Part shown: one piece after another, positions 13,657 through 50,475 of the stretch
Layout of the letters: every line of letters begins with the position of its first letter
Numbering within the stretch: the stretch's first letter is position 1
From: Escherichia phage vB-Eco-KMB25
DNA: 50,475 bases
Direction: 5' to 3' (one strand)
Sequence record: OR424386.1
The notes under the pieces: model-generated
Databases searched by the model: none
The model's input: only the letters and a program-made list of their open reading frames with translations
Told to the model about the DNA's origin: nothing
Made by a program: the position numbers and the translations under genes

Positions 13657-14003
13657 TGTTAGATGAATTTACCTGGTGTACGCAGATTCAGAGCGGCGGC
13701 GGTGTAATGACAACTACCAATAACGACAGGGAAGTTGTTTTTGGTAACGGTTATCGCCAAAAGGCATCTTCTGGATTTAACACGGAGCGTAGGGAGTTTT
13801 CTATTGTTTACGCTGGCGCTGATTATAAAAAAGTGAAAGCGTTCATGACGGATCACAGATTAAAGCCTTTCTTGTGGAGGATGCCGGATGGTGATTTAGG
13901 GTTGTTTACTGTTAAAGCCGGAACGGTAGGACTAACTCCAATAAGCCCAACCGCTCAGGAAGTCAAAGCAACTTTCACGGAAGAATTTACATCCATGCGA
14001 TAA
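13656..14003 (+). CDS. minor tail protein (lambda M-like)
   Basis: 115 aa directly after the tape measure gene; first of a lambda-like M-L-K-I-J order. Confidence 0.6.
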   Translation: MLDEFTWCTQIQSGGGVMTTTNNDREVVFGNGYRQKASSGFNTERREFSIVYAGADYKKVKAFMTDHRLKPFLWRMPDGDLGLFTVKAGTVGLTPISPTAQEVKATFTEEFTSMR

Positions 14004-14007
14004 ATCA

Positions 14008-14033
14008 AAGCCGCCATTGTGCGGCTTTTTTAT
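14008..14033 (+). terminator. rho-independent terminator
   Basis: AAGCCGC-CATTGT-GCGGCTT followed by TTTTT. Confidence 0.55.
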
Positions 14034-14070
14034 TGTGTCTATAATGGTGCTTTATTGGAGGGCATAGAAT

Positions 14071-14829
14071 ATGGCTGAAAAACAGATCAAAAAGACTTTT
14101 GAAAATTGTCTGCAATCGCTTTTCCCTGGTGAAATAATTACGCTTGTTGAGGTTGACGGCACAAAATTTGGTGCGCAGGTTTACCGCTTTCATGCTGAAA
14201 ATATCGCGTACACGCCAGAGGAATTAATGCAAGCGCGTGAAAATGGAATATTGCCGCCGAAAGATATTAAATTTCGTGGCGAGGTTTACGGGGCGCGGCC
14301 TTTTGGTATTACTGGCATCGGATTTACAAGTAACGGAAAGGCAGAGAAACCACAATTGGCGCTTTCAAATTTAGATAGCCGCGTATCTGCATTAATCAGA
14401 TCATATAATGGCATGATGCAAGCCAAAGTAACAATTTGGGTTACATCGGCTGATTTAATTGATGAAGAAGGAAACGTGGAGGACGGCGCATATAGAAAAT
14501 TGGTTTATTATATTGAGCGTCCGAATTTTGTTAATCAGACAGTTGCACGTTTTGAATTAACATCACCTTATGATATGGATGGAATTATGATCCCGCCACG
14601 ACTTACGCAAAGCGTTTGTTATTGGGCGCAAAGGGGATGGTATAGAAGCGGGAAAGGTTGCGGATATAACGGATCGGCAATGTTCGATAAAGACAATAAT
14701 CCGGTAACAGATCCGAGCAAGGATTATTGCGCCGGAACGGTTACAGCTTGCAAATTGCGCTTTGGCGCTCAAAATGAATTAGACTTTGGCGGTTGCGCGG
14801 TTGCATCACTATTGAGGAAAAACCAATGA
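14071..14829 (+). CDS. minor tail protein (lambda L-like)
   Basis: 252 aa with C-terminal cysteine cluster (CYWAQ..GKGCGY..DYCAGTVTAC), as in Fe-S-containing gpL. Confidence 0.65.
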   Translation: MAEKQIKKTFENCLQSLFPGEIITLVEVDGTKFGAQVYRFHAENIAYTPEELMQARENGILPPKDIKFRGEVYGARPFGITGIGFTSNGKAEKPQLALSNLDSRVSALIRSYNGMMQAKVTIWVTSADLIDEEGNVEDGAYRKLVYYIERPNFVNQTVARFELTSPYDMDGIMIPPRLTQSVCYWAQRGWYRSGKGCGYNGSAMFDKDNNPVTDPSKDYCAGTVTACKLRFGAQNELDFGGCAVASLLRKNQ

Positions 14830-15548
14830 TTAACGCAAAAATTAAACTTGAAATTATGCGCCATGCCAATGACGTTTATCCTAATGAATGTTGTGGCCTG
14901 GTAACTCAAAAATCACGCGTACAGAAGTATCACCGGATCGACAACGTAAGCAAGGATCCGGAAAAGCATTTTGAAATGGACGCTGAACAATATGCAGAAG
15001 TTGAGGACGGCGGCGCAGATATCATCGCGATAGTTCATAGCCATACAGGGGAGGGAGCAACCACAATCCCTAGCGCACACGATTTGTGCATGTGTGATGA
15101 AACTGGTGTTTCTTGGGTTATAGTTTCGATACCAGAAGGAGACATGAGAATCATAGAGCCACAATCACGGCCTTTGATTGGTCGCCCCTGGTCGCTTGGC
15201 GCTTATGATTGTTGGGGGCTTATTATGGCCTGGCATAAAGAGCAAGGCGTGATCCTGAATGATTTCCGCAAGCCGTATGAATGGTGGAAGCCGGAACATG
15301 GTGAAAACCTTTATCAAGATAATTACTTGAAAGAAGGTTTTATGGAAACAGGAGAGCCACCAAAGCCAGGTGATATGATCATAATGCAGTTGCAAGCGCC
15401 AGTATGGAACCACTCCGGAATTTATTTAGGCAACAATCAACTATTGCATCATGCATTCGGCAAGTTGTCGCGAGTTGATTTATATTCTGGATGGTATCAG
15501 GAACACACAACAATGATTTGCAGACATAAGGATCTGAAAAATGAATAA
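14826..15548 (+). CDS. tail tip protein (lambda K-like; MPN/JAB plus NlpC/P60-like)
   Basis: N-terminal JAMM-like motif HSHTGEGATTIPSAHD; C-terminal Cys/His papain-like region (YDCWG ... H); ATGA overlap with L-like gene. Confidence 0.7.
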   Translation: MINAKIKLEIMRHANDVYPNECCGLVTQKSRVQKYHRIDNVSKDPEKHFEMDAEQYAEVEDGGADIIAIVHSHTGEGATTIPSAHDLCMCDETGVSWVIVSIPEGDMRIIEPQSRPLIGRPWSLGAYDCWGLIMAWHKEQGVILNDFRKPYEWWKPEHGENLYQDNYLKEGFMETGEPPKPGDMIIMQLQAPVWNHSGIYLGNNQLLHHAFGKLSRVDLYSGWYQEHTTMICRHKDLKNE

Positions 15549-16140
15549 GGTTATCAACGTAAAATTATCAGGCTCATTAGGTCGCCGCTTTGGTGTTTTC
15601 CATAAATACGCCGTTGAGAGTTGGCCTGAATGCGTAAGGGCATTATCAAGCCAGGTTGAAGGATTCAAAGAATTTATGCAAAGTGAAATCGGATCAAAGA
15701 TGAAATTTGCAATTTTCGTTGATGGTAAAAATGTTGGCCTGAATAATGATAGCGCATGGCGTTGCGCTCGCGAGGTTAGAATTGTTCCCGTTCCAACCGG
15801 TTCAAAATCTGGAGGTTTATTTCAGGTTGTATTAGGCGCTGTAATTATGGTTGCTGCATTCTATACTGGCGGCGCTTCACTTGCTGCAATGGGGGCTTTT
15901 TCTTCATCGGCTTTTATGATGGGCGGTGCTATGGTTCTTGGCGGAGTAATGCAGATGATTAGCCCACAACAGGGAGGCATGAAAATGGAGAGTCAAAGCG
16001 CTGAAAATAAACCATCATATGCGTTTGGTGGTGCTGTTAATACTACGGCGGCAGGTTATCCGGTATGTTTGCCATATGGTTATAGAACGGTTGGTGGCGC
16101 TGTATTCAGTGCTGGCTCATACGCAGAAGATAAACTTTAA
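15541..16140 (+). CDS. tail assembly protein (lambda I-like)
   Basis: 199 aa with Gly/Ala-rich hydrophobic C-terminal half; position between K-like and J-like genes. Confidence 0.65.
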   Translation: MNKVINVKLSGSLGRRFGVFHKYAVESWPECVRALSSQVEGFKEFMQSEIGSKMKFAIFVDGKNVGLNNDSAWRCAREVRIVPVPTGSKSGGLFQVVLGAVIMVAAFYTGGASLAAMGAFSSSAFMMGGAMVLGGVMQMISPQQGGMKMESQSAENKPSYAFGGAVNTTAAGYPVCLPYGYRTVGGAVFSAGSYAEDKL

Positions 16141-16147
16141 TTATATA

Positions 16148-16173
16148 AACCCGCCGTTGCGCGGGTTTTTTGT
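16148..16173 (+). terminator. rho-independent terminator between I-like and J-like genes
   Basis: AACCCGC-CGTTG-CGCGGGTT followed by TTTTTG. Confidence 0.6.
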
Positions 16174-16221
16174 TACATGTACAATGGCAGCACGTTTAAA
16201 TAGCACAAAAGGTTAAAAGCT

Positions 16222-19200
16222 ATGATCAAAAATATGATAACTGGCAGTAAGGGCGGTTCTTCAAAGCCTCATACACCTGTTGAAATGGAAGATAACCTAA
16301 TTTCAATTAACAGGATCAGAATTCTTTTAGCCGTTTCTGATGGTGAAGTTGATCCAGACTTTTCATTGAAAGATTTATATTTTGATGACGTTCCGGTTAT
16401 GAATCAGGATGGTTCACTAAACTTTCAGAATGTTAAGGCAGAATTCAGACCAGGGACGCAAACGCAGGATTATATTCAGGGGTTTACTGATACAGCCAGC
16501 GAAATTACAGTTGCTCGCGATCTGACAGCCTCAACGCCTTATATTATTTCTGTTACCAATAAAAACCTTTCTGCGATCCGTATTAAAATTTTAATGCCTC
16601 GCGGGGTTACTCAGGAAGATAACGGAGATCTAACAGGTGTTCGCGTTGAATATGCTGTTGATATGGCTGTTGATGGTGCTGAATATAAAGAGGTTTTTTA
16701 TGATGTAATTGAAGGTAAAACAATGAGCGGTTACGACAGAAGCCGCCGAATTGATTTACCTGCTTTCAATGAGCGTGTTTTATTGCGCGTCCGCCGCCTG
16801 ACAGATAGCACGTCAGCAAGGGTAACGGATCTGATTAAAATGCAAAGCTATGCGGAAGTTGTAGACGCTAAATTTCGTTACCCCCTGACTGGTTTAGTAT
16901 ATGTTGAGTTTGACAGCGAATTATTCCCTAATGCGTTGCCGAATATCAGCATTAAGAAAAAATGGAAAATCATTAATGTTCCGTCAAATTATGATCCTAT
17001 TTCCCGCACTTACTCAGGGTCATGGGATGGAACCTGGAAAAAGGCATGGAGTAATAACCCTGCTTTTGTTCTGTATGATTTGATTACCAATCAGCGTTAC
17101 GGACTCGATCAAAGAGAATTAGGCATCGCGCTTGATAAATGGAGCATTTACGAATGTGCGCAGTATTGCGATCAGATGGTTCCAGACGGTAAAGGCGGAA
17201 CAGAGCCGCGCTATCTTTGCGACGTTGTGATCCAGAGCCAGGTAGAAGCGTATCAGCTTGTGCGTGATATTTGTTCAATCTTCCGTGGCATGAGCTTTTG
17301 GAATGGTGAGAGCCTTTCAATCGTGATCGATAAGCCTCGCGATGCGTCATACATCTTTACTAATGACAACGTGGTTAACGGTGAATTCACTTACACGTTT
17401 GCCAGCGAAAAAAGCATGTACACGCAATGCAACGTGACTTTCGACGATGAACAAAACATGTATCAACAGGATGTTGAGGGAGTTTTCGAAACGGAGGCGG
17501 CGTTACGCTTTGGCTATAACAGCACGTCAATTACTGCGATTGGATGCACACGACGCAGCGAAGCCAACCGCCGTGGACGCTGGATTTTAAAAACCAACGT
17601 CAAGAGCACAACGGTAAACTTTGCTACAGGTCTGGAAGGTATGATCCCAACCGTAGGCGATGTGATTGTTGTATCGGATAACTTTTGGTCAAGCGCTCTA
17701 ACGCTGAATCTATCAGGTCGCGTGATGGAGGTTAGCGGGTTGCAGGTGTTCACGCCGTTTAAGGTTGACGCAAGAGCAGGTGATCGCATTCTGGTAAATA
17801 AGCCGGATGGTAAACCAGTTGGTAGAACCATTGCTAGTGTGAGTGATGACGGTAAAACGCTAACGCTAAACACGACATTTGGTTTTGACGTTCATCCGGA
17901 TACCATTTTTGCAATTGAGCGAACCGATATTGCACAGCAACGATATATTGTAACTGGAATCACTAAGGGTGACGGTGATGAAGAATTTACCTACAACATA
18001 ACGGCTGTTGAATACGATCCGAACAAATACGATGAAATTGATTATGGCGTAAACATTGATGACCGTCCGACTTCAATCGTGCAGCCTGACATTTTGCCAG
18101 CACCGCAAAACGTCAAGATCGAATCTTATTCGCGAGTTATTCAGGGCGCGAGCGTGGAAACAATGCACGTTTCATGGGATAAAGTTGAATACGCAAGTCT
18201 GTATGAAATGCAGTGGCGAAAAGACAATGGCAACTGGAACAATACGCCGCGAACCGCGAACAAGGAAACGGAAGTTGAAGGTATTTATGCGGGTAACTAT
18301 CACGTAAGGGTTAGATCTGTTGCGGCTAATGGTTCAGCGTCTGGATGGTCTGCAATAGTAAGCGCAGGATTAACCGGAAAAGTGGGAGAGCCGGAAAAGC
18401 CAATTAACCTTACAGCGTCAGATAATGAGGTTTTCGGCATTCGCGTAAAATGGGGTATGCCGGAGGGAAGCGGAGACACGGCCTATATAGAGTTGCATCA
18501 AGCGCCAAACGGTGCTGATGGTCATCCTATCGTTGATGAAGCAACGCTCTTAACGCTGATACCGTTCCCGCAATATGAGTATTGGCATTCAATACTGCCA
18601 GCGGGTCATGTTGTCTGGTACAAGGCAAGAGCAGTTGACAAAATCGGTAACGTTTCTGATTGGACTGATTTTGTGCGCGGCATGGCTTCCGACGATACAA
18701 GCATTATCACGGATCATATTAAGGTCGATATTGAAAATTCTGATGGCTATAAGTGGTTGCAGGAAAACGCAATAAAGACCAATGATAAGATCCACAGCAC
18801 AGCGGAATCAGTGATTGAAAACGCATTAGCTAATGATAAAGATGTTCGACGTATGCGAGTTGAAAACGGAAAGCGTAAAGCGGAGTTCTTGCAATCGCTG
18901 AAACTCATTGCAGACGAAACAGAAGCTAGGGTAACACAGGTCACTCAAATGAGTGCGCAATTTGACGAGAAATTAACGGCTCAAAATAGCGAATTGAGAG
19001 AGGTAATTGCTAACAGCACTGAAACCATTAGCCAAAGGATTGATCAGCTTACAGCTACGTTTGATAGCGAAATTGATGGGGTTAAGCAGGATATCAAAGC
19101 GCAGATAACTGATGTTAACCAGGCAATCACCAATGAAGCGGAAGCGCGAGCGTCAGCAGATAGGGCGTTATCAACTCAAATTGGAGATACCCAATCAGCA

Positions 19201-19680
19201 GTGAATCAGAAACTTGATTCTTGGGTTAATGCCGATAGCGTTGGTGCGATGTACGGCGTTAAGTTGGGGATCAGGTATAACGGGCAGGAATATAGCGCGG
19301 GTATGGCTCTTTCCCTTGTTGGTGACGGATCAGGAGTTAAATCACAATTCCTGTTTGATGCTGGACGATTTGCGATCATAAACAACCAACAGAGCGGAAC
19401 GTTTTCTCTTCCTTTTGTTGTTGAAAATAATCAAGTATTCATGAATAGTGCGTTTATTAAAGATGGTACTATTACGAATGCAAAGATAGGGGGTTATATT
19501 TCATCAAATAACTATGTTTGGAATCAATCAGGATGGTATCTTGGCAAGGATGGACAGTTCTATAACTTTGGTTCTACTCCTGGCGAGGGTGCGATGAAAC
19601 AATCCAATGAAACAATCAGCGTAAGGGATCAGAATGGTGTTCTTCGCGTTCAAATAGGAAGAATAACCGGAGTGTTTTAA
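16222..19680 (+). CDS. central tail fibre / host specificity protein (lambda J-like)
   Basis: 1152 aa; N-terminal GSKGGSSKPHTP and central VPSNY..YSG.WDGT..NNPAF..QYCDQ.VPDG.GGTEPR blocks resemble lambda gpJ as recalled from memory. Confidence 0.85.
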   Translation: MIKNMITGSKGGSSKPHTPVEMEDNLISINRIRILLAVSDGEVDPDFSLKDLYFDDVPVMNQDGSLNFQNVKAEFRPGTQTQDYIQGFTDTASEITVARDLTASTPYIISVTNKNLSAIRIKILMPRGVTQEDNGDLTGVRVEYAVDMAVDGAEYKEVFYDVIEGKTMSGYDRSRRIDLPAFNERVLLRVRRLTDSTSARVTDLIKMQSYAEVVDAKFRYPLTGLVYVEFDSELFPNALPNISIKKKWKIINVPSNYDPISRTYSGSWDGTWKKAWSNNPAFVLYDLITNQRYGLDQRELGIALDKWSIYECAQYCDQMVPDGKGGTEPRYLCDVVIQSQVEAYQLVRDICSIFRGMSFWNGESLSIVIDKPRDASYIFTNDNVVNGEFTYTFASEKSMYTQCNVTFDDEQNMYQQDVEGVFETEAALRFGYNSTSITAIGCTRRSEANRRGRWILKTNVKSTTVNFATGLEGMIPTVGDVIVVSDNFWSSALTLNLSGRVMEVSGLQVFTPFKVDARAGDRILVNKPDGKPVGRTIASVSDDGKTLTLNTTFGFDVHPDTIFAIERTDIAQQRYIVTGITKGDGDEEFTYNITAVEYDPNKYDEIDYGVNIDDRPTSIVQPDILPAPQNVKIESYSRVIQGASVETMHVSWDKVEYASLYEMQWRKDNGNWNNTPRTANKETEVEGIYAGNYHVRVRSVAANGSASGWSAIVSAGLTGKVGEPEKPINLTASDNEVFGIRVKWGMPEGSGDTAYIELHQAPNGADGHPIVDEATLLTLIPFPQYEYWHSILPAGHVVWYKARAVDKIGNVSDWTDFVRGMASDDTSIITDHIKVDIENSDGYKWLQENAIKTNDKIHSTAESVIENALANDKDVRRMRVENGKRKAEFLQSLKLIADETEARVTQVTQMSAQFDEKLTAQNSELREVIANSTETISQRIDQLTATFDSEIDGVKQDIKAQITDVNQAITNEAEARASADRALSTQIGDTQSAVNQKLDSWVNADSVGAMYGVKLGIRYNGQEYSAGMALSLVGDGSGVKSQFLFDAGRFAIINNQQSGTFSLPFVVENNQVFMNSAFIKDGTITNAKIGGYISSNNYVWNQSGWYLGKDGQFYNFGSTPGEGAMKQSNETISVRDQNGVLRVQIGRITGVF

Positions 19681-19720
19681 AATGTGGGGCGCATGCCCCA
19701 CTAATTAAAGAGGTGATTTT

Positions 19721-20029
19721 ATGAGTTACGATATTGCAACATGGGACGCAAACGGCGTTTACAATAACTATGGAATTAAGCCAGTTTCAGTAATATCAAA
19801 TATACAACTTTCATCAGGTCAAACATCTGGGCAATGGTTTTTTAATGTTCCACAAGGTAAAAAATTAGGCTATGTTGTTGGTCTTGATATTGGAGGTACT
19901 CAGGTTGGAAGGAAGATTGAAGTTTCTGGAAATTCTATAATTGTTAGCGCAGCATTATCTGGAAACGTAGGTTATAATTATTACCCTGCATCGCAATGTG
20001 AAGTTATCGTGTATTTGGAGAATGCATAA
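19721..20029 (+). CDS. small tail-associated protein (hypothetical)
   Basis: 102 aa with strong RBS AAAGAGGTG; contains WDANG motif shared with the ORF at the window end. Confidence 0.3.
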   Translation: MSYDIATWDANGVYNNYGIKPVSVISNIQLSSGQTSGQWFFNVPQGKKLGYVVGLDIGGTQVGRKIEVSGNSIIVSAALSGNVGYNYYPASQCEVIVYLENA

Positions 20030-20279
20030 TGTCTTATGGAGCAATGATTGATTACAAAAGTCAAACTTTCATAACGCCGGAATCAACTCCTTTTGTTAGG
20101 TTTACATTCCTGGTCAACAGCCTGTTATTGTTAACGTTTCTGCATATACTGCGGCAAGTTTTAACGGGTCAACAACGAGAATAAATGCCGCATCCAATCA
20201 GGCGGCTGGCGGTTCTCCTGTCGGTTATCTGAATACAGGCGTTGCGGTGACGGCAATTAATACAGCATCTTATGACTAA
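20029..20279 (+). pseudogene. frameshifted paralogue of the 3' part of the gene at 50018-50475
   Basis: ORF from ATG 20029 stops at 20184; the -1 frame (20100-20279) encodes VYIPGQQPVIVNVSAYTA... and is identical over at least 54 nt to 50422-50475; an in-frame TAG sits immediately before the homologous segment. Confidence 0.35.
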
Positions 20280-20306
20280 AAAAAGGAGGCTAAAGCCTCC
20301 TTTTTA
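20278..20306. terminator. bidirectional rho-independent terminator
   Basis: GGAGGC-TAAA-GCCTCC hairpin flanked by an A-run and a T-run between convergent genes. Confidence 0.6.
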
Positions 20307-20537
20307 TTAAATGCTACAATCTGAGTTTTTGAAGTTATCAACGCTCACCCACTGATAACTGAACGGGTATCCAGGCTTAACAAGAGTACGATCACCCACT
20401 CTCTTAACACCGAATATTGCAACTTCATAATTCATGCCGCTGTTTTCATATGTGGCGCTACATTCTCTCTTTGGCATGTTTGAACATCCAGTAATTAGAA
20501 TTGATGCGGCAATTGCTGCAATGATTGATTTTTTCAT
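20307..20537 (-). CDS. small lipoprotein, Cor-like superinfection-exclusion candidate
   Basis: 76 aa from ATG 20537 (RBS AAGGAA); lipoprotein signal MKKSIIAAIAASILITGC; convergent and adjacent to the tail fibre genes, as Cor is in T1/phi80-type phages. Confidence 0.45.
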   Translation of the reverse strand: MKKSIIAAIAASILITGCSNMPKRECSATYENSGMNYEVAIFGVKRVGDRTLVKPGYPFSYQWVSVDNFKNSDCSI

Positions 20538-20585
20538 GGTTATTTCCTTGTCATTTTGAATTTGGTTCATAGTTTGTGTGAGATA

Positions 20586-20640
20586 ACTATGCTACTAAAA
20601 TCCAATTGTTGCAAGTATTGTTTTTAGCAAAAAGTGCTAT
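20586..20640 (-). promoter_or_regulatory. promoter of the lipoprotein gene: TTGCAA-17-CATAGT with an upstream dyad box
   Basis: Minus-strand -35 at 20609-20614 and -10 at 20586-20591; box TAGCACTTTTTGCTAAAAAC at 20621-20640. Confidence 0.4.
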
Positions 20641-20723
20641 CTGTTGTTTTCTTTTGTTCCAAGGTGTTCACAACTTAATCCGGCGTAAAATTGAAAACGT
20701 CTTGATAACAAAAAGAACAAATG

Positions 20724-20808
20724 AAATATCTATATAATACATACACTTAGAGTTTAATTATTATTATATATATCTATTTGTATTCTTCTTGTTTCTATTG
20801 TTCTCTAC
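20724..20808. repeat. AT-rich repeat element, copy 1
   Basis: AAATATCTATATAATACAT ... TAATTATTATTATATAT ... CTTGTTTCT, shared with 41222-41294. Confidence 0.5.
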
Positions 20809-21062: not shown

Positions 21063-22118
21063 ATGAGCGATTTTAAAGTTTACACCTTTGACCAGTTAAC
21101 CAATGATGAATATCACGATCCTAAAGGTTGGGCGGCTGAATACGTTAGCGGTTCAAGCCTGGCGGAAATCTTTGCAACTTGTCCGGCTGCATGGAAATAC
21201 AGACCACGCGAGGAAAGCAAAGCGCTTGTTTTCGGTACGCAGTCACACACCAACTTTCAAAGCAGTGAGTTGTTCGCAAAAGAGTACCGCCGAGCGCCAG
21301 CGCCGGAAGATTACGAAAACTTGATCACAAGCCAAACGGCATTAGCCAGCAAGTTAAAATCTTTTGGCCTGACTGGTACAAGCGGTAAAACTTATCCAGA
21401 CCTGATAAAAATGATGGTTGATTGTGGGGAGGATCTTAATGTTCAGTGGCTGATTGAAATGATCGCAGAGAGCCAGGCGCGAGCGGATAACGTTGAATTG
21501 GTTCCGGCTAAAGATTACGACGCTTGCGTTACCATGCGCCGCGTACTTGAAAACATACCGGAACACAACGCTTGCATGAATAGCCCAACAGCACAACGCG
21601 AGCTATCAATTTTCGGATCTATTAAAGGCGTTAAAGTCAAAGTAAGGCTTGACCATGTTGATATTTGCAAGGATGTGCTTGCAACGGTGATTTCCGGCTA
21701 TGACGGTGAAGGGAATCCGGTTTATGAAACAACGCGATTTGATGAAGCTATTGTGATCACTGATTACAAAACAACGTCAAGCGCTAACCCAACGGAGTTT
21801 TCACGGCTGGCATTCAATCACGGATACTACTTGAAAATGGCATTGCAGCATGACCTATTCAAGAAAGCGTATCCAGAAGAAACGCGCCCCGTAGTAGTCA
21901 GATTGCTGGCGCAGGAAAAGAAAGAGCCTTATTTACCGATTGCATACCGCATGACGGATGAACAATTGAAGATCGGACGGCTTCAATACATGAGTGTGAT
22001 AAACCAGTTTGCAGAATGCCAGGCAAATGACAGTTGGCCTTCATACGCAAACGGAGAGCCTGAAATTGATCTTCAAACGCCTGATTGGGTACGCAGACAA
22101 TACAAAGGTTTTTTATAA
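21063..22118 (+). CDS. PD-(D/E)xK family exonuclease (recombination exonuclease candidate)
   Basis: ATG 21063 behind GAGAGGA; motifs RLDHVD ... ITDYKTT resemble the D..(D/E)xK nuclease core; lies upstream of the Erf-like and SSB genes. Confidence 0.5.
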   Translation: MSDFKVYTFDQLTNDEYHDPKGWAAEYVSGSSLAEIFATCPAAWKYRPREESKALVFGTQSHTNFQSSELFAKEYRRAPAPEDYENLITSQTALASKLKSFGLTGTSGKTYPDLIKMMVDCGEDLNVQWLIEMIAESQARADNVELVPAKDYDACVTMRRVLENIPEHNACMNSPTAQRELSIFGSIKGVKVKVRLDHVDICKDVLATVISGYDGEGNPVYETTRFDEAIVITDYKTTSSANPTEFSRLAFNHGYYLKMALQHDLFKKAYPEETRPVVVRLLAQEKKEPYLPIAYRMTDEQLKIGRLQYMSVINQFAECQANDSWPSYANGEPEIDLQTPDWVRRQYKGFL

Positions 22119-22119
22119 A

Positions 22120-22161
22120 TAGCACTTTTTGCTAAAACAGCCATTCGATGCGTGGTATACT
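22120..22161 (+). promoter_or_regulatory. dyad-box promoter (TAGCACTTTTTGCTAAAAC, 17 bp, TATACT)
   Basis: Member of the repeated box-spacer-hexamer architecture. Confidence 0.5.
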
Positions 22162-22193
22162 ACACGCATCAACCAACAAGAGAGGAAATAAAA

Positions 22194-22484
22194 ATGGAAA
22201 AGCAATTCAACGAGCGCGAAATCAAAGAAGTTCAGGATCACGTAGAAAAAGTAACTTCCGCAATCGCAGTTACGCAACGTGAATTTTTAAAGGTAATTGA
22301 TCCGAGTGAATCGCCTGAAACTATGGCATACGTTCGCAAGGTTGCACATGCATTTGATAATGTAATTCTCACAATATTTCAGCACGAAGATAATGAGCAA
22401 TATAAAAACATGTTGCACCAGGCCAGTGAGGTAATGATCCAGAATTTGATTGATTACCACAATAAAGGTAAAGAAACTCATTAA
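22194..22484 (+). CDS. hypothetical protein
   Basis: 96-aa ORF from ATG 22194 behind GAGAGGA. Confidence 0.3.
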   Translation: MEKQFNEREIKEVQDHVEKVTSAIAVTQREFLKVIDPSESPETMAYVRKVAHAFDNVILTIFQHEDNEQYKNMLHQASEVMIQNLIDYHNKGKETH

Positions 22485-22531
22485 TTAAATTGGCGGCGAA
22501 AGCCGCCTAACCTATCAGCGGAGTGAATTAG

Positions 22532-23194
22532 ATGAAATTTTCAGAACAAAACGCAAACGTGATTAAGGCATTGTTTGAGGCGCGTCAATTATTCACCAAA
22601 GTAAAAAAGGATAAGCAAAATACGCACCTTAAAAACAAATATGCAACGCTTGACAGTGTTCTTGATGCAATTATGCCTGGGCTTACTGATAAGGGTTTAT
22701 TCCTTACACAAGATCAGAAAGTCAGTGAAGATCTTAAATCAATGACTGTATTCACGCGATTCATTCATGTTGAATCAAACGAATGGGTAGAATATAGCTT
22801 CACGCTTCCAATGCAGAAATTAGATCCTCAAGGCGGCGGCTCAACAAATAGCTATGCTCGACGTTATGCGCTTTGTACTGCTTTAGGGTTGGCAACGGCT
22901 GACGATGACGCAAATCTTGCCACCAAAAACGCGCAGGATTGGAAAAAAGATCTTGATGCTTGCGATAACCTTACAGACTTGCAAGAAACGTTTAAAACTG
23001 CTTACAAGCAATCTGACGCAGCAAACCGCCGAATCATTAAAGAGCATTACGATAAGCTGAAAGCAAAAATGGAAATAGGAAAGGCTCGCGGCTTTAATCC
23101 GGCTGAACCAGCGGCGAATGTTGCAAAGAATGAAAAGGTTGAAAAGGAACCGCAACAGGAAGTAAAATCACAGTCTATCACTGACTTTGAATAA
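22532..23194 (+). CDS. single-strand annealing protein (Erf-like, putative)
   Basis: 220 aa between the exonuclease and SSB genes; assigned by synteny and general resemblance to Erf-type recombinases. Confidence 0.45.
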   Translation: MKFSEQNANVIKALFEARQLFTKVKKDKQNTHLKNKYATLDSVLDAIMPGLTDKGLFLTQDQKVSEDLKSMTVFTRFIHVESNEWVEYSFTLPMQKLDPQGGGSTNSYARRYALCTALGLATADDDANLATKNAQDWKKDLDACDNLTDLQETFKTAYKQSDAANRRIIKEHYDKLKAKMEIGKARGFNPAEPAANVAKNEKVEKEPQQEVKSQSITDFE

Positions 23195-23231
23195 TAATTT
23201 GCGGGGCGTAATGCCCCGATAAGGAAAAATA

Positions 23232-23657
23232 ATGCACGTTATCACTGGTGAAATTCGCAAAGAGCCTTATATTAAGCAGGGCGCAAGCGGAACTTTATAC
23301 ATCGTTGAATTAGCGGAATCGTATAAAGATCGTGAAGGTAATCGACAATATACGAATTACAAGTTTTTCTTTAATGCCAAAAGCGACGGCATGAATAATT
23401 GGTATCGCGATGCGTTCCAGATCGGTAAGGTTGTTTCAGTATCGTGCGATCAGTTACGCATTGATAGCAACGAATACAACGGACAAATTTATAACACGCT
23501 AACAAGTGCTGGATTTGCTAACCTGCAATTTAGCCAGCGCGGGGAAGGTCAAGCACCACAACAGCAACGACCGCCTCAGCAACATCGACCACAGCAACAG
23601 CAAGCGCCACAAAACAACGAGCCTCCAATGGATTTCGACGACGATATCCCATTCTGA
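23232..23657 (+). CDS. ssb: single-stranded DNA-binding protein
   Basis: Gln/Pro-rich linker followed by C-terminal MDFDDDIPF, the conserved acidic SSB tail. Confidence 0.85.
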   Translation: MHVITGEIRKEPYIKQGASGTLYIVELAESYKDREGNRQYTNYKFFFNAKSDGMNNWYRDAFQIGKVVSVSCDQLRIDSNEYNGQIYNTLTSAGFANLQFSQRGEGQAPQQQRPPQQHRPQQQQAPQNNEPPMDFDDDIPF

Positions 23658-23659
23658 TA

Positions 23660-23690
23660 AAATAAAACCCCGCAATGCGGGGTTTTTTAT
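23660..23690. terminator. bidirectional rho-independent terminator
   Basis: AACCCCGC-AAT-GCGGGGTT hairpin flanked by A- and T-runs between convergent ssb and tail fibre genes. Confidence 0.65.
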
Positions 23691-25834
23691 TACTTAGTAA
23701 GCTGAACAAGCATTGCTTGCATTTCCGCAATTGCGGCTTTCATTTCTGCGATCTCGTTTTTCAACTCTTTAATTTCCTCCTGTTGTTTCTCTATTTTTTC
23801 TTTCTGCTCTTTGAATGCGTTAACCAAAAGAGCTACAACGCCATTATAGTTAATGCCTTTGATTGCCTCGCCTTTTGGATCTATCTGACCATCATTATTC
23901 AAAGAATGAACCGCTTCCGGCAAAACCCTTTCAACATCTTGTGCGATCAATCCAGCCTCAATGCTATAAACGCTGTTTTCATCTTCAATTAGATTGTTGC
24001 GCTTGTAGTAAGTATAACCAGTTAGATAATCAATTTTGTCGGATGCTGTTTCGATCTCTTTTAGATGTGCTTTCATCCTTATGTCAGATGTGCTAATCCA
24101 TTGGTTACAAGTAGCATTTCCAACGTTATTGAAAATGAATTCTCCACCCTTTACATAAAGGTGAGTTTCAGCACCGCCACTCGACCAGTTAACGGCATCC
24201 ATTCCAGTAATCCAATCATCACCCCAATGAACAACCTTAAATACGTTAACGGCTGCGTCTTTTGCTGTAATCTCGCAAAGCATTCCAGCACCACGATCAC
24301 GCCAAGCAGTAAAAGCGCCTCCCTGAATTTGACCGCCAATCATGGCACTTGCCCCACCAGACCTAATGCCAGCAACCCTAATGCCGTTTGCATCGTCACT
24401 AATAGGCCATATAGTCAATAACCCGTACATGTTAAAATCATTAGCTTGGCATGTTGCAATATTTCTACCGTTGCACATTACTTGCAAAATGCCATCACCG
24501 CCCCACCTAAAACCTGTGTCAGTGTCACCAATTACTAACGCATTACTTCCAAGCGCATTACCAATACCCCTACCGATAACTATTGAATTGTAATTTATCG
24601 CGTTACCGCTTTCATCAAATTGATAATAGTTTGTATCACCTCCTTCCCTAGTGACTTGTATTGTTGATTTTGCTAATCCACCTTGAATTTCGTTGTAAAT
24701 TCTTGAGTATGAAAGCTGTACATCTTCTGGACTTTTGTTTATTAAATAAAGAACTCCAGAGTTTGCAGAGTTTTTTTCTGTTAGGCTTATTCCTCTAAAA
24801 ACAGGTATATCAGCCTCACCAATGCCAAAGTTATTCCTTGCTTGGCTTACGTTTTCCGCACCAGTACCGCCAGCACCAACAGAAAGAGCGGATGTGCTGT
24901 TATCGCTATTTCTTGCAACTCGCCACTCGCCGTTGTTTGCGATCCGTAATTCATAAGTCCATGCAGGGTTACGAAATGAGTTATAATCACCTGGATTTTG
25001 CCCCTTAACTGAATTAACAGCCTCAACTTTCAGCGCCTCCCTTGCTAAATCTTTATTAGCAAGATCATTAAGATTCTGATCCTTATGCAGAAGGTTTTCA
25101 GGGTTAACTTGTTGTGCCCATTGGCGAGCTTCATCACGCGCAGTCTCAGCGCCAGCCTTTGCAGAGTCGGCGGCAATCTTTGATTGTTCAGCGGCAAGTT
25201 GTGATTCCTTTGCTGCATCGCGAGCATTAACAGACTCGTTTTTAATTGATCCAATTTCAGAAACGGCGCTATCTTTTATTTGTTGCGTCTGCGTTTTTAT
25301 TGCGTCAGTGTCCGCCTTAATCTGATTGGTTTCATTGACGGCAGCATCCTTAATCTGTTGAGTCTCAGATACAGCAGAATCCTTAATATGTTGCGTTTCA
25401 TTTTTTAGTTGCTCAGTTGCCGCTTTGTCGTTTGCTACCTGTTGAGCATCAGCATTAACCTTGTTAACTAAATCTTGCAATGTTTTCAGATCGAAGTTTT
25501 TAAAGAATTCAATTGCTTCCTCAATTACCGTTTCTTTACTTTGGTAATAACGCAGCGTTTCCGCTACATCTTGCGCCATTCCATCGACAGTTAGCGAGTC
25601 ATTCAACAGGATCACATAATTTCCGTTTGCTACTTGCTCGCCGTCAGTCTGGATCGCTTTCATTTCCGTGTCGCTTACAATATCGCTAATCACAGCCAAT
25701 TTAAGAGGCGATGTGAGAAATACGATTGTTGCGCCAGTGCGGATAAGAGAAAGAGGCTCACGCCATTTTGTGCCAGTACCAGTAATAACGCCTTGCGCGT
25801 CCATTGCAGCCGTACCAGTTCGATATAAAGCCAT
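23690..25834 (-). CDS. tail fibre protein with C-terminal intramolecular chaperone (S74-like) domain
   Basis: 714 aa; C-terminal ...[19 protein letters not shown]... then coiled-coil [35 protein letters not shown], typical of auto-cleaving fibre chaperone domains; RBS GAGGTG. Confidence 0.7.
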
Positions 25835-25900
25835 AATTACACCTCATTTTATTCATTGAAACAGTGTAGTGATTATGCGATATTGCTATGTTACATGCAA

Positions 25901-25924
25901 TAAAAAACCCCGCCTTAGCGGGGT
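25901..25924 (-). terminator. rho-independent terminator (minus strand)
   Basis: CCCCGC-TAAG-GCGGGG hairpin followed by a T-run on the minus strand. Confidence 0.55.
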
Positions 25925-25989
25925 TCGTCAACGACAACGAGAAGCCAATGAAACAGATTCATCGAAAAGTGTTAGTAGCAGGATGAATA

Positions 25990-26916
25990 TTATAATAAGT
26001 CACTTGCCTTGTAAAGCCTCCGCTCTATTCCATTTTTGAATTTACCGTTAATTGGTAGCATTACGTCTAATTCGCGATCATCAGCAGAAATCAAAGTATC
26101 GCGATCATTAGCATGGCACACAACGCGCATTTTGCGATCTCCTTTGTATCTGTATGCAACAATTTCAAGATTTGAAGGCGAGAAACACGCCCATACTTCT
26201 TGCCCCGTCGCCAGGTGTATATGTTGCGCATCAATCCAATCAACGCAAAGGTAAATTGTTTTGTCAGTCTTGCCAGTTACCGCAACGCTTCCACGCGTGT
26301 AATCTTTCGCGTAAAAACTGCTTTTACCTTCCTCATTGACGAAAAGAATATTGCACATGTCATCATCCAATTCATCACTATGCACCAGGTGGCAAGGAAT
26401 AGCGTGTATATGCTCGCAATATCCATTTTCATGAGTTTTTACGCCAACTTGATACGATTCGCCGTCTAATGGATAAAACGCCTCAAAAACGCTTAGATTT
26501 GTTATTTCCATGCGTTCAGTTTTATCCATAACCTCAACACATTTTTCATGAGTTGCTTGCGATCCGAAATTGTAACCGGAGTCACGTTTTGCCGCTTTGT
26601 TAGCCTTGTTGACAACCTCAACCGGAACCAGGTTTAACCATTCGCCTAGAGTGTCGATTGCTTCACTGTAATTTTCACCACGTATGCGCATGAATAATCC
26701 GATCCCTGAATCATTCCCGCATTGGTTGCAAATGTTGCCGCCGTCGCCTTTCTCGTTGATTTTGTCCGTCCATCTGAAACGGTCTTTACCTCCACAATAA
26801 GGGCATGGTTGATGCTTTCCGTTAAAGGTTAATTGAGGAATATCACAAAGTTTCATCAATGCCGCTTGCCACATTCCGCGCATCTTTGGGATCACTTCTT
26901 CTTTCTGGTAATGCAT
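25990..26916 (-). CDS. DNA primase-like protein (zinc-binding)
   Basis: N-terminal CPYCGG...CNQCG zinc-ribbon-like motif; adjacent to the helicase gene; RBS GGAGG. Confidence 0.45.
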   Translation of the reverse strand: MHYQKEEVIPKMRGMWQAALMKLCDIPQLTFNGKHQPCPYCGGKDRFRWTDKINEKGDGGNICNQCGNDSGIGLFMRIRGENYSEAIDTLGEWLNLVPVEVVNKANKAAKRDSGYNFGSQATHEKCVEVMDKTERMEITNLSVFEAFYPLDGESYQVGVKTHENGYCEHIHAIPCHLVHSDELDDDMCNILFVNEEGKSSFYAKDYTRGSVAVTGKTDKTIYLCVDWIDAQHIHLATGQEVWACFSPSNLEIVAYRYKGDRKMRVVCHANDRDTLISADDRELDVMLPINGKFKNGIERRLYKASDLL

Positions 26917-26948
26917 TTCTCAACCTCCAAATAAAAAAACCTGGCACG

Positions 26949-26991
26949 ATGATAAACCATGCCAGGCCGGAATTTTTAGCAATCAGTGCTA
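26949..26991 (-). promoter_or_regulatory. dyad-box promoter (TAGCACTGATTGCTAAAAA, 18 bp, TATCAT)
   Basis: Box overlaps the last codons of the upstream gene (..DSTDC stop). Confidence 0.45.
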
Positions 26992-27584
26992 TCGACGGAA
27001 ATCACAACGCGTTTCTTCTGATTGGCTTCCTTTGCTTTGCGCCGTTCTTCTTTCGCCTTGTCGCGTTCAGCTTTGCGCCGCGCTTTCTCCTTCTCGCGTT
27101 CTTCTGGAGTCATAGACCGTAACGGATCGTAAGGCCGAACAAATCCGCGCGCCTCCGCTTCTTCTTTTGTGACAAATCGCATGAGCTTTCTGTTGCTGCA
27201 ACGATTCTCTAATGGCTTGCCGTTGTTGTCAAAGCGCAAATCTGGACGGCAATATGAAGCGCGGAAACCGTTAAAACCTTTGCGGCGGTAATCCTTTTGG
27301 ATCAGTTCAGCGCCTTTAGCTGAAATCATTCCGCGCTCTTTCCATCCCCACACTGTTTTAAGGTTAACGCCAATCTCACGCGCCAACGCAGCACAGCCGC
27401 CATAAGCGCTAACCACTTCATCAAGCCTAGCTTTTAATCCTGCCCTTACTTCTTCCTTTAGTACCAGATAACCGCTAACAGGTGCGCGGCGCTTCCGGTC
27501 TTTACCACGCCTTACGCCGTTGTTACCATTGATTGTGCGTTTGTCGATTTCGCCCGTTGAGGCCGCAATTTTGATTCCGCCCAT
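26976..27584 (-). CDS. putative DNA-binding protein with Lys/Arg/Glu-rich C-terminus
   Basis: ATG 27584 behind AGGTGA; HTH-like segment AALAREIGVNLKTVWGW; protein ends DSTDC, encoded by the dyad box. Confidence 0.3.
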   Translation of the reverse strand: MGGIKIAASTGEIDKRTINGNNGVRRGKDRKRRAPVSGYLVLKEEVRAGLKARLDEVVSAYGGCAALAREIGVNLKTVWGWKERGMISAKGAELIQKDYRRKGFNGFRASYCRPDLRFDNNGKPLENRCSNRKLMRFVTKEEAEARGFVRPYDPLRSMTPEEREKEKARRKAERDKAKEERRKAKEANQKKRVVISVDSTDC

Positions 27585-27595
27585 ATTTTCACCTA

Positions 27596-27637
27596 TAGCA
27601 CTTTTTGCTAAAACTATTGAGTAAGTTTGTGTATGAT
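27596..27637 (+). promoter_or_regulatory. dyad-box promoter (TAGCACTTTTTGCTAAAAC, 17 bp, TATGAT)
   Basis: Upstream of the helicase gene. Confidence 0.5.
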
Positions 27638-27672
27638 ATGGTGCAAATGGCATTTAGTCAAAAGGATAAGTA

Positions 27673-29646: not shown

Positions 29647-29648
29647 AA

Positions 29649-30056
29649 ATGGTTACTGATAAAGGCGATTATCTGGAGTATTACGACAAATCAGATCCAG
29701 ATGACAGAAAAGAGGAAGCGCACCAGGTTGATTCTTATTCATGGTTAACATATGAGTTTCCAATGTGGCTTGTTTGGCACACTAAAAACGAAGGGAAGAA
29801 AACAATAGGCACAGCAGTAAAGGATCAGCAAGCAGGTGTAAAAAAAGGAGTAAGCGACATTCTAATCCTGACTGGTTTTATTGGCTGCAAATATGCATTC
29901 ATTGCAATTGAGCTTAAACGAGCCAACAAGAAAGGAACTAAAGTAAGCCAGGAACAAAGGGAATTCTTGCGCCGCGTTAGGGAATGCGGAGGATTTGCCG
30001 CAGTATGCTATGGTGTAGATCAAGTAAAATTGGCTATCGCAGACGCTACAAAATAG
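29649..30056 (+). CDS. VRR-NUC domain nuclease (putative)
   Basis: 135 aa; core ...DILILTGFIGCKYAFIAIELKR...VSQEQREF... resembles the VRR-NUC D-E-K fold. Confidence 0.5.
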   Translation: MVTDKGDYLEYYDKSDPDDRKEEAHQVDSYSWLTYEFPMWLVWHTKNEGKKTIGTAVKDQQAGVKKGVSDILILTGFIGCKYAFIAIELKRANKKGTKVSQEQREFLRRVRECGGFAAVCYGVDQVKLAIADATK

Positions 30057-30096
30057 CACTTTTTGTTAAAACAGGCGCGACGGAATGCGCCATAAT
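30054..30096 (+). promoter_or_regulatory. dyad-box promoter (TAGCACTTTTTGTTAAAAC, 18 bp, CATAAT)
   Basis: Box TAG is the stop codon of the upstream gene. Confidence 0.5.
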
Positions 30097-30127
30097 GCAC
30101 ACATCAGAACGAAACGGAGAATTAACC

Positions 30128-30406
30128 ATGAAAAAGATGTTATCAGTAGTTGCTTTATCACTTGCCATTGTCGGTTGCATGGATAAACCAAAAACATATA
30201 TTTGCGGAAATGAAGCGTTTGAGGTTACAAGCGAATATATGAAAGTTGTGCAAGGTAAAAGCACAGGCGTTGTAATGGATAATATCAGCAAAAATCAATA
30301 TAAGCTGTTTACGCCAATTGGAACGGCTTTTTACACTGTTAACGATAGCACCATTGATATTAAAGTTGGCGTTTATCAGAACACTCTAACTTGCGAGGTA
30401 AAATAA
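30128..30406 (+). CDS. small lipoprotein (hypothetical)
   Basis: 92 aa from ATG 30128 behind GGAG; signal peptide with lipobox MKKMLSVVALSLAIVGC. Confidence 0.45.
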   Translation: MKKMLSVVALSLAIVGCMDKPKTYICGNEAFEVTSEYMKVVQGKSTGVVMDNISKNQYKLFTPIGTAFYTVNDSTIDIKVGVYQNTLTCEVK

Positions 30407-30407
30407 A

Positions 30408-31148: not shown

Positions 31149-31377
31149 AATGAGCATTCGATTAGCCGATCACATGAAATGGGATTTATTTGTCGGTATG
31201 ACAATTCGCTTACTTGATAAGCATGGTTATAACGATGATAAAATGGAGTTGATAAACTGCCTGGATATGACATTTGACGAAATCAAAGTTGCGCCTTTGT
31301 ACATGTGGGAAAGAAAAATTGAGCACGACCTGATACAATACAAACGCAGAGAGGGCGCACGATTTTTCAATGTGAAA

Positions 31378-31420
31378 TAGCACTTTTTGTTAAAACCCGC
31401 TACGGCGGGTTTTGTATTAT
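31378..31420 (+). promoter_or_regulatory. dyad-box promoter (TAGCACTTTTTGTTAAAAC, 18 bp, TATTAT)
   Basis: Spacer contains terminator-like hairpin CCCGC-TACG-GCGGG followed by TTTTG. Confidence 0.5.
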
Positions 31421-33039: not shown

Positions 33040-33055
33040 TTAAATTATCAAGAAA

Positions 33056-33084
33056 AAGGCTGGCTAAGTGCTGGCCTTTTTTTG
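33056..33084 (+). terminator. rho-independent terminator (putative)
   Basis: GGCTGGC-TAAGT-GCTGGCC hairpin (two G-U wobbles) followed by a T-run. Confidence 0.4.
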
Positions 33085-33150
33085 TTTTTGTGGTTAACAT
33101 ATTCACACTAATTTTGGCATTGACATTTTAATTTAATTGAGGATCAGATT

Positions 33151-34255: not shown

Positions 34256-34268
34256 GCCGCCTTTTCTT

Positions 34269-49309: not shown

Positions 49310-50017
49310 AAACGCCGTGAACATAAGAGGCTCAATAGAGCAAAGCGCGGCGCGTTAGCCGTAAAACCTAATCGGATGGGATTGCATAGCAAACGACCAT
49401 CGCGGGAACCGTAACCCGCAACCATTCAGGAGAATTCACGATGCAAAACAAAGAAATCGCAAAGGTAACTATCATCGTCGAGCGTGACGGAAAGAAAACG
49501 CGATACAAGAAGCGATTTAAACAAGGTGAGGCGATGTTAGGCCGGATCGGTGATTTCATGGTGAAATTGCAAGAGGATAAACCGGATGAAATTCAAGGTT
49601 AAGCTAACTATCCGGCGCATGGGTCGCAATTGCGGATCATGTAAACAAGATTTCGAATGCGAGGTTGAAGCGCTAAACACTGTTGATGCGGTTAAATGCG
49701 CTAAAGTTCTTTCAGGTGCTAACCCTGAAACACACCAATTTTCAATCAATTATGTGAGGGCTATATAATGCTGATGTTCATTGCTGGTTTTGGTTTTTGT
49801 GCGATTATCTGTTTCTTTCTCTATCTTTGTTTTTCGTGGGGTGTACAGCGTTGCGTAAAAGACAACGAATTAGTGATCGCCATTTACGAAAACAAAGCTG
49901 ATAAATGGAAGATTACTAAAAACTTTGAAAAGATTGCTGATGAAATTGCATTCCGTCGCAAGTTTGGCAAGCCTGGAAGCATCAAGTATATTGATTGATT
50001 TATATTCAAGAACGGAA

Positions 50018-50475
50018 GTGGTAGCAACAAAAACAACTGGCGAAAACGTAAGCGCAATATCAAGAGTTTATTGCCCTAGATCATATTCTGCCATTGGATT
50101 TATAAAATGCTCATGGGGTGCGGCTTTAGGTTGTTATAGGGACGGTGATTATATAGTTTTTAGCGGATCTGCACAGGGTAGGAATGTGCCGTTGTTTACA
50201 ATAACATGTTATTTATTTGCTAAATTTCCACAACCATTACCGCAATGGGGCATGGCTATATGGGATGCAAACGGTACATGCATTCTAACAAATGAAAGCA
50301 AGCCATTATCGGATCTTATTACTATTGGAGAACCTGGTTCTGGCGGTGGAATATATATAGATCAGACATTATCTGGTTCTTATGCTGTTATGCCTAGATT
50401 GATGGGCTCTACTTTAGTTCAGGTTTACATTCCTGGTCAACAGCCTGTTATTGTTAACGTTTCTGCATATACTGC
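50018..50475 (+). CDS. tail fibre-like / receptor-recognition candidate, truncated by the window end
   Basis: Frame open from 49940 to the window edge; start uncertain (GTG 50018 or ATG 50252); WDANG motif as in 19721-20029 and 3' end identical to 20099-20152. Confidence 0.35.
   Translation, partial: MVATKTTGENVSAISRVYCPRSYSAIGFIKCSWGAALGCYRDGDYIVFSGSAQGRNVPLFTITCYLFAKFPQPLPQWGMAIWDANGTCILTNESKPLSDLITIGEPGSGGGIYIDQTLSGSYAVMPRLMGSTLVQVYIPGQQPVIVNVSAYT

What the first reader, a model, noticed from the sequence alone, without database searches (positions are those of the whole stretch)
19721..20280. Frameshifted paralogue downstream of the J-like gene shares at least 54 identical bp with the gene at the window end
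The ORF 19721-20029 and the ORF running off the window end both carry a WDANG motif. The segment 20099-20152 (GTTTACATTCCTGGTCAACAGCC...CATATACTGC) is identical to 50422-50475. Upstream of that block the two copies differ by substitutions and a 1-nt indel (gttcaGG at the end versus gtt-aGG here), so the ORF starting at ATG 20029 runs into the homologous VYIPGQQPVIVNVSAYTA... segment in the wrong frame, with TAG immediately before it in the correct frame. This looks like a decaying or gene-converted duplicate of a tail-associated (possibly receptor-recognition) gene, or an assembly or sequencing error at a repeat.
Basis: seen in the sequence. Interest (0 to 1): 0.55.

Follow-up and report, generated by a model that had tools for sequence, protein, structure and literature searches.

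The report
One receptor-binding gene split by misassembly
The "frameshifted paralogue" and the gene fragment at the window end are three pieces of one ordinary 223-codon phage receptor-binding gene, whose middle 421 bp has been displaced to the end of the sequence record, almost certainly by an assembly or finishing error.

The parts
16222..19680 (+). J-like central tail fibre / tail tip gene (1152 aa). The receptor-binding module lies directly downstream.
   Evidence: phrog_31 'central tail fiber J', E=0. The identical protein is on Logan contig SRR6680616_1020 with GpJ Pfam domains.
19721..20029 (+). ORF A, 102 aa. First gene of the receptor-binding module (accessory protein). Carries WDANG near its N-terminus. 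Intact.
   Evidence: phrog_557 end to end, E=1.4e-26. A 102-aa gene sits at the same position in Motto, L003 and L004.
20029..20097 (+). Gene B, piece 1: codons 1-23 (MSYGAMIDYKSQTFITPESTPFV).
   Evidence: Colinear with residues 1-24 of Motto gp23 and 1-23 of P0001. L004 is 100% identical up to 20097.
20097..20098 (.). False junction J1. The end of codon 23 is abutted to the 2nd base of codon 164. This creates the in-frame TAG (20097-20099) and the apparent frameshift. There is no microhomology at the join.
   Evidence: The right side of the junction is exactly the first base of the 55-bp repeat.
20098..20152 (+). 55-bp exact repeat, copy 1 (start of gene B piece 3).
   Evidence: family D7, 100% identity.
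20100..20279 (+). Gene B, piece 3: codons 165-223 plus stop (VYIPGQQ...NTASYD*).
   Evidence: Colinear with the C-terminus of Motto gp23 and P0001.
20280..20305 (.). Bidirectional terminator-like hairpin between the convergent genes B and cor (A5-GGAGGC-TAAA-GCCTCC-T5).
   Evidence: RNA fold -16.1 kcal/mol, z=-5.3. Self-complementary BLAST hit. The consensus scan did not list it.
20307..20537 (-). cor-like superinfection-exclusion lipoprotein. 76 aa from the MKKSII...ITGC start; the mechanical ORF extends to 20570.
   Evidence: phrog_1119 'Cor superinfection exclusion protein', E=1.6e-25. Called as 76 aa in L003 and L004.
49998..49999 (.). False junction J2. The stop codon of the last gene (49996-49998) is followed, after one ambiguous T, by the middle of gene B. 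The 87-88 bp terminator/promoter/RBS found here in relatives is absent.
50000..50420 (+). Gene B, piece 2 (displaced): codons 24-163 plus the first base of codon 164. It has no start codon or RBS of its own. Contains the conserved WGxAxWDAxG motif.
   Evidence: Open frame colinear with residues 25-165 of Motto gp23. L004 bases 6877-7297 are 100% identical. Conserved columns W106 G107 A109 W111 D112 G115. No credible start.
50421..50475 (+). 55-bp exact repeat, copy 2. It ends at the last base of the record.

Best explanation
The window is a T1-like (Drexlerviridae, Tlsvirus-like) phage genome record that starts at the ATG of the small terminase gene.

The true locus. Downstream of the J-like tail-tip gene it encodes the usual receptor-recognition module of small siphoviruses. 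This is a 102-aa accessory protein, a 223-aa receptor-binding protein (gene B), and a convergent cor lipoprotein gene.

What went wrong in the record. The central 421 bp of gene B, together with the next 55 bp, were cut out of place and appended after the last gene. There they replace the 88-bp regulatory region that should precede the terminase gene. The true order is W[1-20097] + W[50000-50420] + W[20098-49998] + about 88 bp, closing the circle (about 50.5 kb). The frameshift, the TAG and the 'paralogue' are all by-products of this misplacement.

Likely origin (inferred). An assembly or finishing error. The 55-bp exact overlap that ends at the final base looks like the terminal k-mer overlap of a k=55 de Bruijn (SPAdes-type) contig. 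The record was then re-oriented to the terminase start, and during that step a piece was mis-joined or appended.

Likely function of the real gene (inferred). The B protein attaches to the tip of the J fibre and binds an outer-membrane beta-barrel, most likely FhuA. Cor blocks the same receptor in infected cells.
For: Shown:
1. The three pieces tile without loss or gain of a base into a 672-nt, 223-aa ORF.
2. That ORF matches phrog_425 over 1-223 of the protein and 2-224 of the 224-position profile, E=1e-56. It is 99% identical over 100% of its length to a 223-aa database protein, P0001. It is colinear with Motto gp23, 224 aa. 344 of 348 phage records with a homologue cover at least 80% of it.
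3. Logan contig SRR6680616_1020 encodes the identical J protein and is 100% identical over 7,873 nt to W[13222-20097]+W[50000-50420]+W[20098-20673]. Its called genes are 1152, 102, 223 and 76 aa. A second contig (ERR10922806_167) shows the same order at 99.2%.
4. J1 coincides exactly with the first base of the 55-bp repeat, and the repeat ends at the last base of the record.
5. U136B, Stevie and 20 metagenomic or Logan loci have 87-88 bp (terminator, promoter, RBS) between the last gene's stop and the TerS ATG. None has gene-B sequence there. The window lacks that region entirely.
6. The end fragment has no start or RBS. Its homology to B begins exactly at 50000.
7. An AlphaFold model of the intact protein is one confident all-beta fold (pLDDT 88, pTM 0.83). 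Strands cross both break points, E23-31 and E157-165.

Function:
- The locus type is described in PMC8594841 and in bioRxiv 10.64898/2026.04.02.716166.
- Homologues occur in the FhuA-dependent phages T1 and Teewinot (PMC10373560) and in HK022.
- Cor is adjacent.
Against: - No reads or assembly graph are available, so the artefact is inferred from the sequence and from related contigs, not observed directly.
- I could not reconstruct a single simple editing step that yields exactly this layout: zero overlap at the N-terminal/middle boundary, 55 bp at the middle/C-terminal boundary, and loss of the 88-bp region.
- The 100%-identical Logan contig is not the same genome. It is 47.4 kb and only 98.7% identical over 21989-30916. 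It therefore shows what the locus looks like in a very close relative, not in this very isolate.
- If the underlying record is longer than the window, the figure of 55 would be an accident of where the window was cut.
Confidence: 0.87

Rival explanations
1. Mixed population plus assembly. The sequenced lysate contained a real deletion allele of gene B (N-terminus joined to C-terminus) alongside the wild type. The assembler put the deletion allele in the main path and left the wild-type 'bubble' arm as a fragment that was appended at the end.
For: This would explain a fragment ending in a k-length overlap with the main path. Receptor-binding genes are under strong selection.
Against: - The join has no microhomology, and it is out of frame although an in-frame GTT microhomology was available one base away.
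- A bubble arm should also overlap the main path by k bases on its left side, and it does not.
- A phage lacking two-thirds of its RBP should not reach high frequency in a lysate.
- It does not explain the missing terminase upstream region.
Confidence: 0.06
2. Real genome rearrangement. In this phage the middle of the RBP gene was truly transposed to a site upstream of the terminase gene, giving a defective or variant genome.
For: The sequence as given is the only direct datum. Phage genomes of this group are highly mosaic.
Against: - It requires a base-perfect cut-and-paste plus a 55-bp duplication that happens to end at the record's last base.
- It destroys the RBP and removes the promoter and RBS of an essential gene.
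- The aberrant junctions were not found in any collection scanned. Those scans are uninformative, however, because the intact junction was not found there either.
Confidence: 0.04
3. The locus at 20029-20279 is a decaying or gene-converted paralogue of a second, intact gene that starts near the window end.
For: The shared WDANG motif and the 55 identical bases.
Against: - The two loci share nothing except those 55 bp. The regions upstream of the block are not homologous.
- The end fragment lacks the first 23 codons, a start and an RBS.
- The WDANG of the 102-aa ORF belongs to a different family, phrog_557, which is only weakly related to the second half of B (E=0.027).
- Relatives have one copy of B, not two.
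Confidence: 0.02
4. Programmed ribosomal frameshift or translational bypass joins the 20029 ORF to the VYIPG frame.
For: Two overlapping frames with a short ORF leading into a longer conserved segment.
Against: - There is no slippery heptamer at GTT AGG TTT.
- The product would lack 141 conserved residues that form the core of the fold.
- All homologues are single uninterrupted ORFs.
Confidence: 0.01

Closest known systems
Terminal k-mer overlap of de Bruijn-graph (SPAdes-type, k=55) contigs, and mis-joins made when circular phage contigs are re-oriented
   Same: The exact repeat has length 55, a default SPAdes k value (from my own knowledge of the assembler). One copy ends at the last base of the record. 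The internal copy begins exactly at an aberrant junction. The record starts at the first base of the terminase gene, which indicates post-assembly re-orientation.
   Different: A correctly handled circular contig has the repeat at its two ends. Here one copy is internal, a 421-bp piece is out of order and 88 bp are lost, so at least one further editing or scaffolding error is needed. The exact step cannot be recovered from the sequence.
[quoted passage not shown] 2021, PMC8594841; bioRxiv 10.64898/2026.04.02.716166)
   Same: The position directly after the J-like gene. A small accessory gene plus a gene of about 223 aa, with a convergent cor lipoprotein gene. Full-length homologues in T1, Teewinot, HK022 and Dhillonvirus phages.
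   Different: Receptor specificity was not tested here. The backbone is Tlsvirus-like, and the closest relatives (Stevie, U136B) have a long J (1258 aa in Stevie) and no RBP locus. This phage therefore carries a swapped-in module, which the cited papers already describe as common.
RBP of phage Oekolampad (Bas18) bound to LptDE, PDB 9rpt chain C
   Different: Only 13% identity. Foldseek did not find it significant (E=0.21). It binds a different receptor (LptD) and belongs to a different sequence family.
Cor superinfection-exclusion lipoproteins of phi80, N15, T1 and mEp phages
   Same: phrog_1119 match E=1.6e-25, a lipobox (ITGC), convergent orientation next to the RBP gene.
   Different: Exclusion activity and FhuA dependence were not tested.

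Membership tests
PHROG 425 / about-223-aa RBP family of T1-like and lambdoid FhuA phages | Full-length colinear match to the family profile and to family members | tested here: met
   For the re-joined ORF: residues 1-223 against profile positions 2-224 of 224, E=1e-56. 99% identity and 100% coverage to P0001. The ORF as it stands in the window (51 aa) does not meet this.
PHROG 425 / about-223-aa RBP family of T1-like and lambdoid FhuA phages | Genomic position: directly downstream of gpJ and the about-102-aa gene, next to cor | tested here: met
PHROG 425 / about-223-aa RBP family of T1-like and lambdoid FhuA phages | Binds FhuA (receptor specificity) | not testable with these tools
   Inferred only, from homologues in FhuA-dependent phages (PMC10373560) and from the adjacent cor gene.
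Decaying paralogue / pseudogene copy | Two loci homologous to each other over the same part of the gene, with divergence between the copies | tested here: not met
   The loci cover residues 1-23 plus 165-223, and 24-181. Only 55 nt are shared, at 100% identity. The upstream flanks are not homologous.
Decaying paralogue / pseudogene copy | The second copy has its own start and expression signals | tested here: not met
   There is no start or RBS. Homology begins abruptly at 50000, one base after the stop codon of an unrelated gene.
Programmed -1/+1 frameshift site | A slippery sequence, and conservation of the two-frame arrangement in homologues | tested here: not met
   No X XXY YYZ motif at 20092-20103. 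Homologues are single ORFs.
Assembly artefact with terminal k-mer overlap | An exact repeat of assembler k length, with one copy at the very end of the contig | tested here: met
   55 bp, 50421-50475, 100% identical to 20098-20152. That 55 is a default SPAdes k value comes from my own knowledge.
Assembly artefact with terminal k-mer overlap | Reads do not support the aberrant junctions and do support the re-joined order | not testable with these tools
   No reads were available. Indirect support: two independent public assemblies show the re-joined order, one at 100% identity.

The most novel reading that the evidence does not exclude
The layout is real. In this phage the core of the receptor-binding gene has been moved to just upstream of the terminase gene. 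This could be, for example, a recombinational on/off switch of host recognition, or a defective genome propagated with a helper.
Probability: 0.03. Interest if true: 0.45.

Novelty: not a real feature. Interest (0 to 1): 0.08.

Why it matters
The main use is as a quality flag.
- As deposited, the record would be annotated with a truncated or frameshifted receptor-binding gene, a spurious partial ORF at its end, and a terminase gene without promoter or RBS.
- Genome-based receptor prediction for this phage would then fail or mislead, because it relies on exactly this locus.
- The corrected order restores an ordinary FhuA-type RBP/cor module on a Tlsvirus-like backbone whose relatives use a long TolC-type J protein. 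This is one more example of the already documented horizontal exchange of this module.

Tried and rejected
- Exact-pattern scans for the two aberrant junctions found nothing in IMG/VR, JGI metagenomes or GTDB genomes. The predicted true junction was also absent from the two collections scanned for it, IMG/VR and JGI metagenomes. These collections apparently do not hold this allele, so the negatives say nothing.
- I tried to fetch the terminase-upstream region of the 100%-identical Logan contig through exact look-ups of TerS, the portal protein and TerL. These returned other relatives only, though all of them show the 87-88 bp region.
- BLASTP of the 102-aa ORF against gene B found only the 9-residue WDANG patch (E=0.026). 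A PHROG scan gave a weak match of B's second half to the 102-aa family (E=0.027). This is suggestive of an old domain relationship but unproven.
- I tried to derive the window layout from a single rotation or cut-and-paste of a k=55 circular contig and could not. At least two errors, or a scaffolding step, are needed.
- Considered and rejected: programmed frameshift, microhomology-mediated natural deletion (the join has no microhomology and is out of frame), and a second full-length paralogue.

Full report
**What the window is.** It is a T1-like siphovirus genome (Drexlerviridae, Tempevirinae, Tlsvirus-like). Its best DNA matches are U136B, Stevie and relatives. Base 1 is the A of the ATG of the small terminase gene, so the sequence looks like a complete record that someone re-oriented after assembly.

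The finding lies just downstream of the 1152-aa J-like central tail fibre gene, 16222-19680 (phrog_31). After it come:
- a 102-aa ORF, 19721-20029 (phrog_557);
- the problematic stretch, 20029-20279;
- a strong bidirectional hairpin, 20280-20305;
- a convergent cor lipoprotein gene, 20307-20537 (phrog_1119).

**Checking the observation.** The repeat is real and slightly longer than reported. 20098-20152 equals 50421-50475 exactly, 55 bp. It is the only perfect long direct repeat in the window.

WDANG occurs in both ORFs. The ORF from ATG 20029 runs into the VYIPGQQ segment out of frame, and TAG (20097-20099) precedes that segment in its own frame.

The reported diverged homology upstream of the block ('substitutions and a 1-nt indel') does not hold. 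The 69 nt upstream of each copy align no better than shuffled sequence; 788 of 2000 shuffles do as well.

**What it really is.** The frame at the window end is open across all of 50000-50475 but has no start of its own. Homology to anything begins abruptly at 50000, one base after the stop codon of an unrelated 76-aa gene.

In the closest annotated phage with this module, 'Pseudomonas phage' Motto, the 102-aa gene is followed by a 224-aa gene and then cor. Aligning by eye against that protein:
- window 20029-20097 corresponds to residues 1-24;
- window 50000-50422 corresponds to residues 25-165;
- window 20100-20279 corresponds to residues 166-224.

Joining W[20029-20097]+W[50000-50422]+W[20100-20279] gives a 672-nt ORF of 223 aa. 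That ORF:
- matches phrog_425 end to end, residues 1-223 against profile positions 2-224 of 224, E=1e-56;
- is 99% identical over its full length to a 223-aa database protein, P0001;
- has full-length homologues in 344 phage records, including T1, HK022, Teewinot and Dhillonvirus phages.

**Independent assemblies show the intact order.**
- Logan contig SRR6680616_1020 encodes exactly the window's J protein. It is 100% identical over 7,873 nt to W[13222-20097]+W[50000-50420]+W[20098-20673]. Its called genes are 1152, 102, 223 and 76 aa.
- Logan contig ERR10922806_167 has the same order at 99.2% identity.

So the three window pieces tile the intact locus without a single base lost or gained. The TAG and the frameshift are products of the join itself. 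The last base of codon 23 (gtT) is abutted to the last two bases of codon 164 (cAG), which adds 2 nt to the frame.

An AlphaFold2 model of the intact protein (P0001 with 39 homologues) is a single confident all-beta fold (pLDDT 88, pTM 0.83). Its strands run across both break points.

**Why I consider the layout an artefact rather than biology.**
1. The internal junction (20097|20098) coincides exactly with the first base of the 55-bp repeat, and the other copy ends at the last base of the record. From my own knowledge of the assembler, 55 is the largest default k of SPAdes for short reads, and circular SPAdes contigs carry a k-length overlap at their ends.
2. The displaced piece sits exactly where U136B, Stevie and 20 further loci have an 87-88 bp region with terminator, promoter and RBS for the terminase gene. 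The window has lost this region entirely, and none of those loci has gene-B sequence there.
3. Taken literally, the genome would lack a functional RBP, and its essential terminase gene would have no ribosome-binding site.
4. The join at 20097|20098 has no microhomology and is out of frame, although an in-frame GTT microhomology lies one base away. This is not what a replication-slippage deletion looks like.

**Limits of the argument.**
- I have no reads.
- I could not derive the layout from one simple editing error.
- The 100%-identical contig belongs to a close relative, not the same genome. It is 47.4 kb and 98.7% identical over 21989-30916, whereas Stevie is 99.98% identical there.

Overall I put about 0.99 on 'one gene in three pieces' and about 0.87 on 'assembly or record artefact'.

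[quoted passage not shown] TolC-specific relatives lack the locus and have a C-terminally extended J instead (PMC8594841; bioRxiv 10.64898/2026.04.02.716166).

The window fits this description.
- Compared with Stevie (J of 1258 aa, no RBP locus), homology breaks at 19448 and resumes at 20644. The J tip, the 102-aa gene, the 223-aa gene and cor therefore form a swapped-in cassette.
- Family members occur in the FhuA-dependent phages T1 and Teewinot (PMC10373560), and the neighbour is Cor. From my own knowledge, Cor is associated with blocking of FhuA.

I therefore predict FhuA as the receptor. This was not tested.

**The WDANG motif.** In gene B it is part of a conserved WGxAxWDAxG block at residues 106-115. 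The 102-aa protein belongs to a different PHROG. The second half of B matches that PHROG only weakly (E=0.027 over about 96 residues), and BLASTP finds only the motif. An old domain relationship is possible but not established.

**Verdict.** The finding is not a paralogue, a pseudogene or a frameshift site. It is an ordinary, already described kind of receptor-binding gene that a record-level error has cut into three pieces. The corrected genome is about 50.5 kb: W[1-20097]+W[50000-50420]+W[20098-49998]+about 88 bp. Interest is low, except as a correction to the record.

Noticed in passing
window 49999 / 1 (record ends): The 87-88 bp terminator/promoter/RBS region that U136B, Stevie and 20 further loci have between the last gene's stop and the TerS ATG is absent from the window. 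The record is therefore also incomplete by about 88 bp.
   Followed up: yes
window 19449-20643: Module swap relative to the closest backbone relatives. Stevie has a 1258-aa J and no RBP locus or cor (the TolC type of the literature). The window has a 1152-aa J with a different tip, plus the 102-aa gene, the 223-aa gene and cor. Homology to Stevie breaks at 19448 and resumes at 20644.
   Followed up: partly
window 13222-20673 versus 20644-41134: Mosaic relationships. The tail/RBP region is 100% identical to Logan contig SRR6680616_1020, but that contig is only 98.7% identical over 21989-30916. Citrobacter phage Stevie is 99.98% identical over 21990-30916 and 99.8% over 20644-41134. This could be natural recombination or a chimeric assembly of co-occurring strains.
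   Followed up: partly
window 30051-48062, both orientations: A motif of about 22 nt, AAATAGCAC(T/G)(T/A)(T/A)TTG(T/C)TAAAAC, recurs at least 12 times in front of early-region genes, often followed by a hairpin (families D1-D6). It corresponds to the 'repeat_region' features annotated in Stevie. It is probably a phage-specific promoter or regulatory element.
   Followed up: no
window 20755-20802 and 41243-41290: An AT-rich imperfect direct repeat (77% identity, family D9). The Logan contig SRR6680616_1020 breaks at this element.
   Followed up: no
gene B (re-joined), residues 105-223, versus ORF A 19721-20029: The second half of the 223-aa RBP weakly matches the family of the 102-aa neighbour (phrog_557, E=0.027, about 96 residues), including the WDANG motif. 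This may reflect an ancient domain duplication within the module.
   Followed up: partly
[not shown]
   Followed up: partly
database hits: Several T1-like records carrying this module are labelled with unlikely hosts (Pseudomonas phage Motto, Campylobacter phages A144 and A16a, Streptococcus phage MBBL140). These are probably contaminants or mislabelled hosts in the public records.
   Followed up: no
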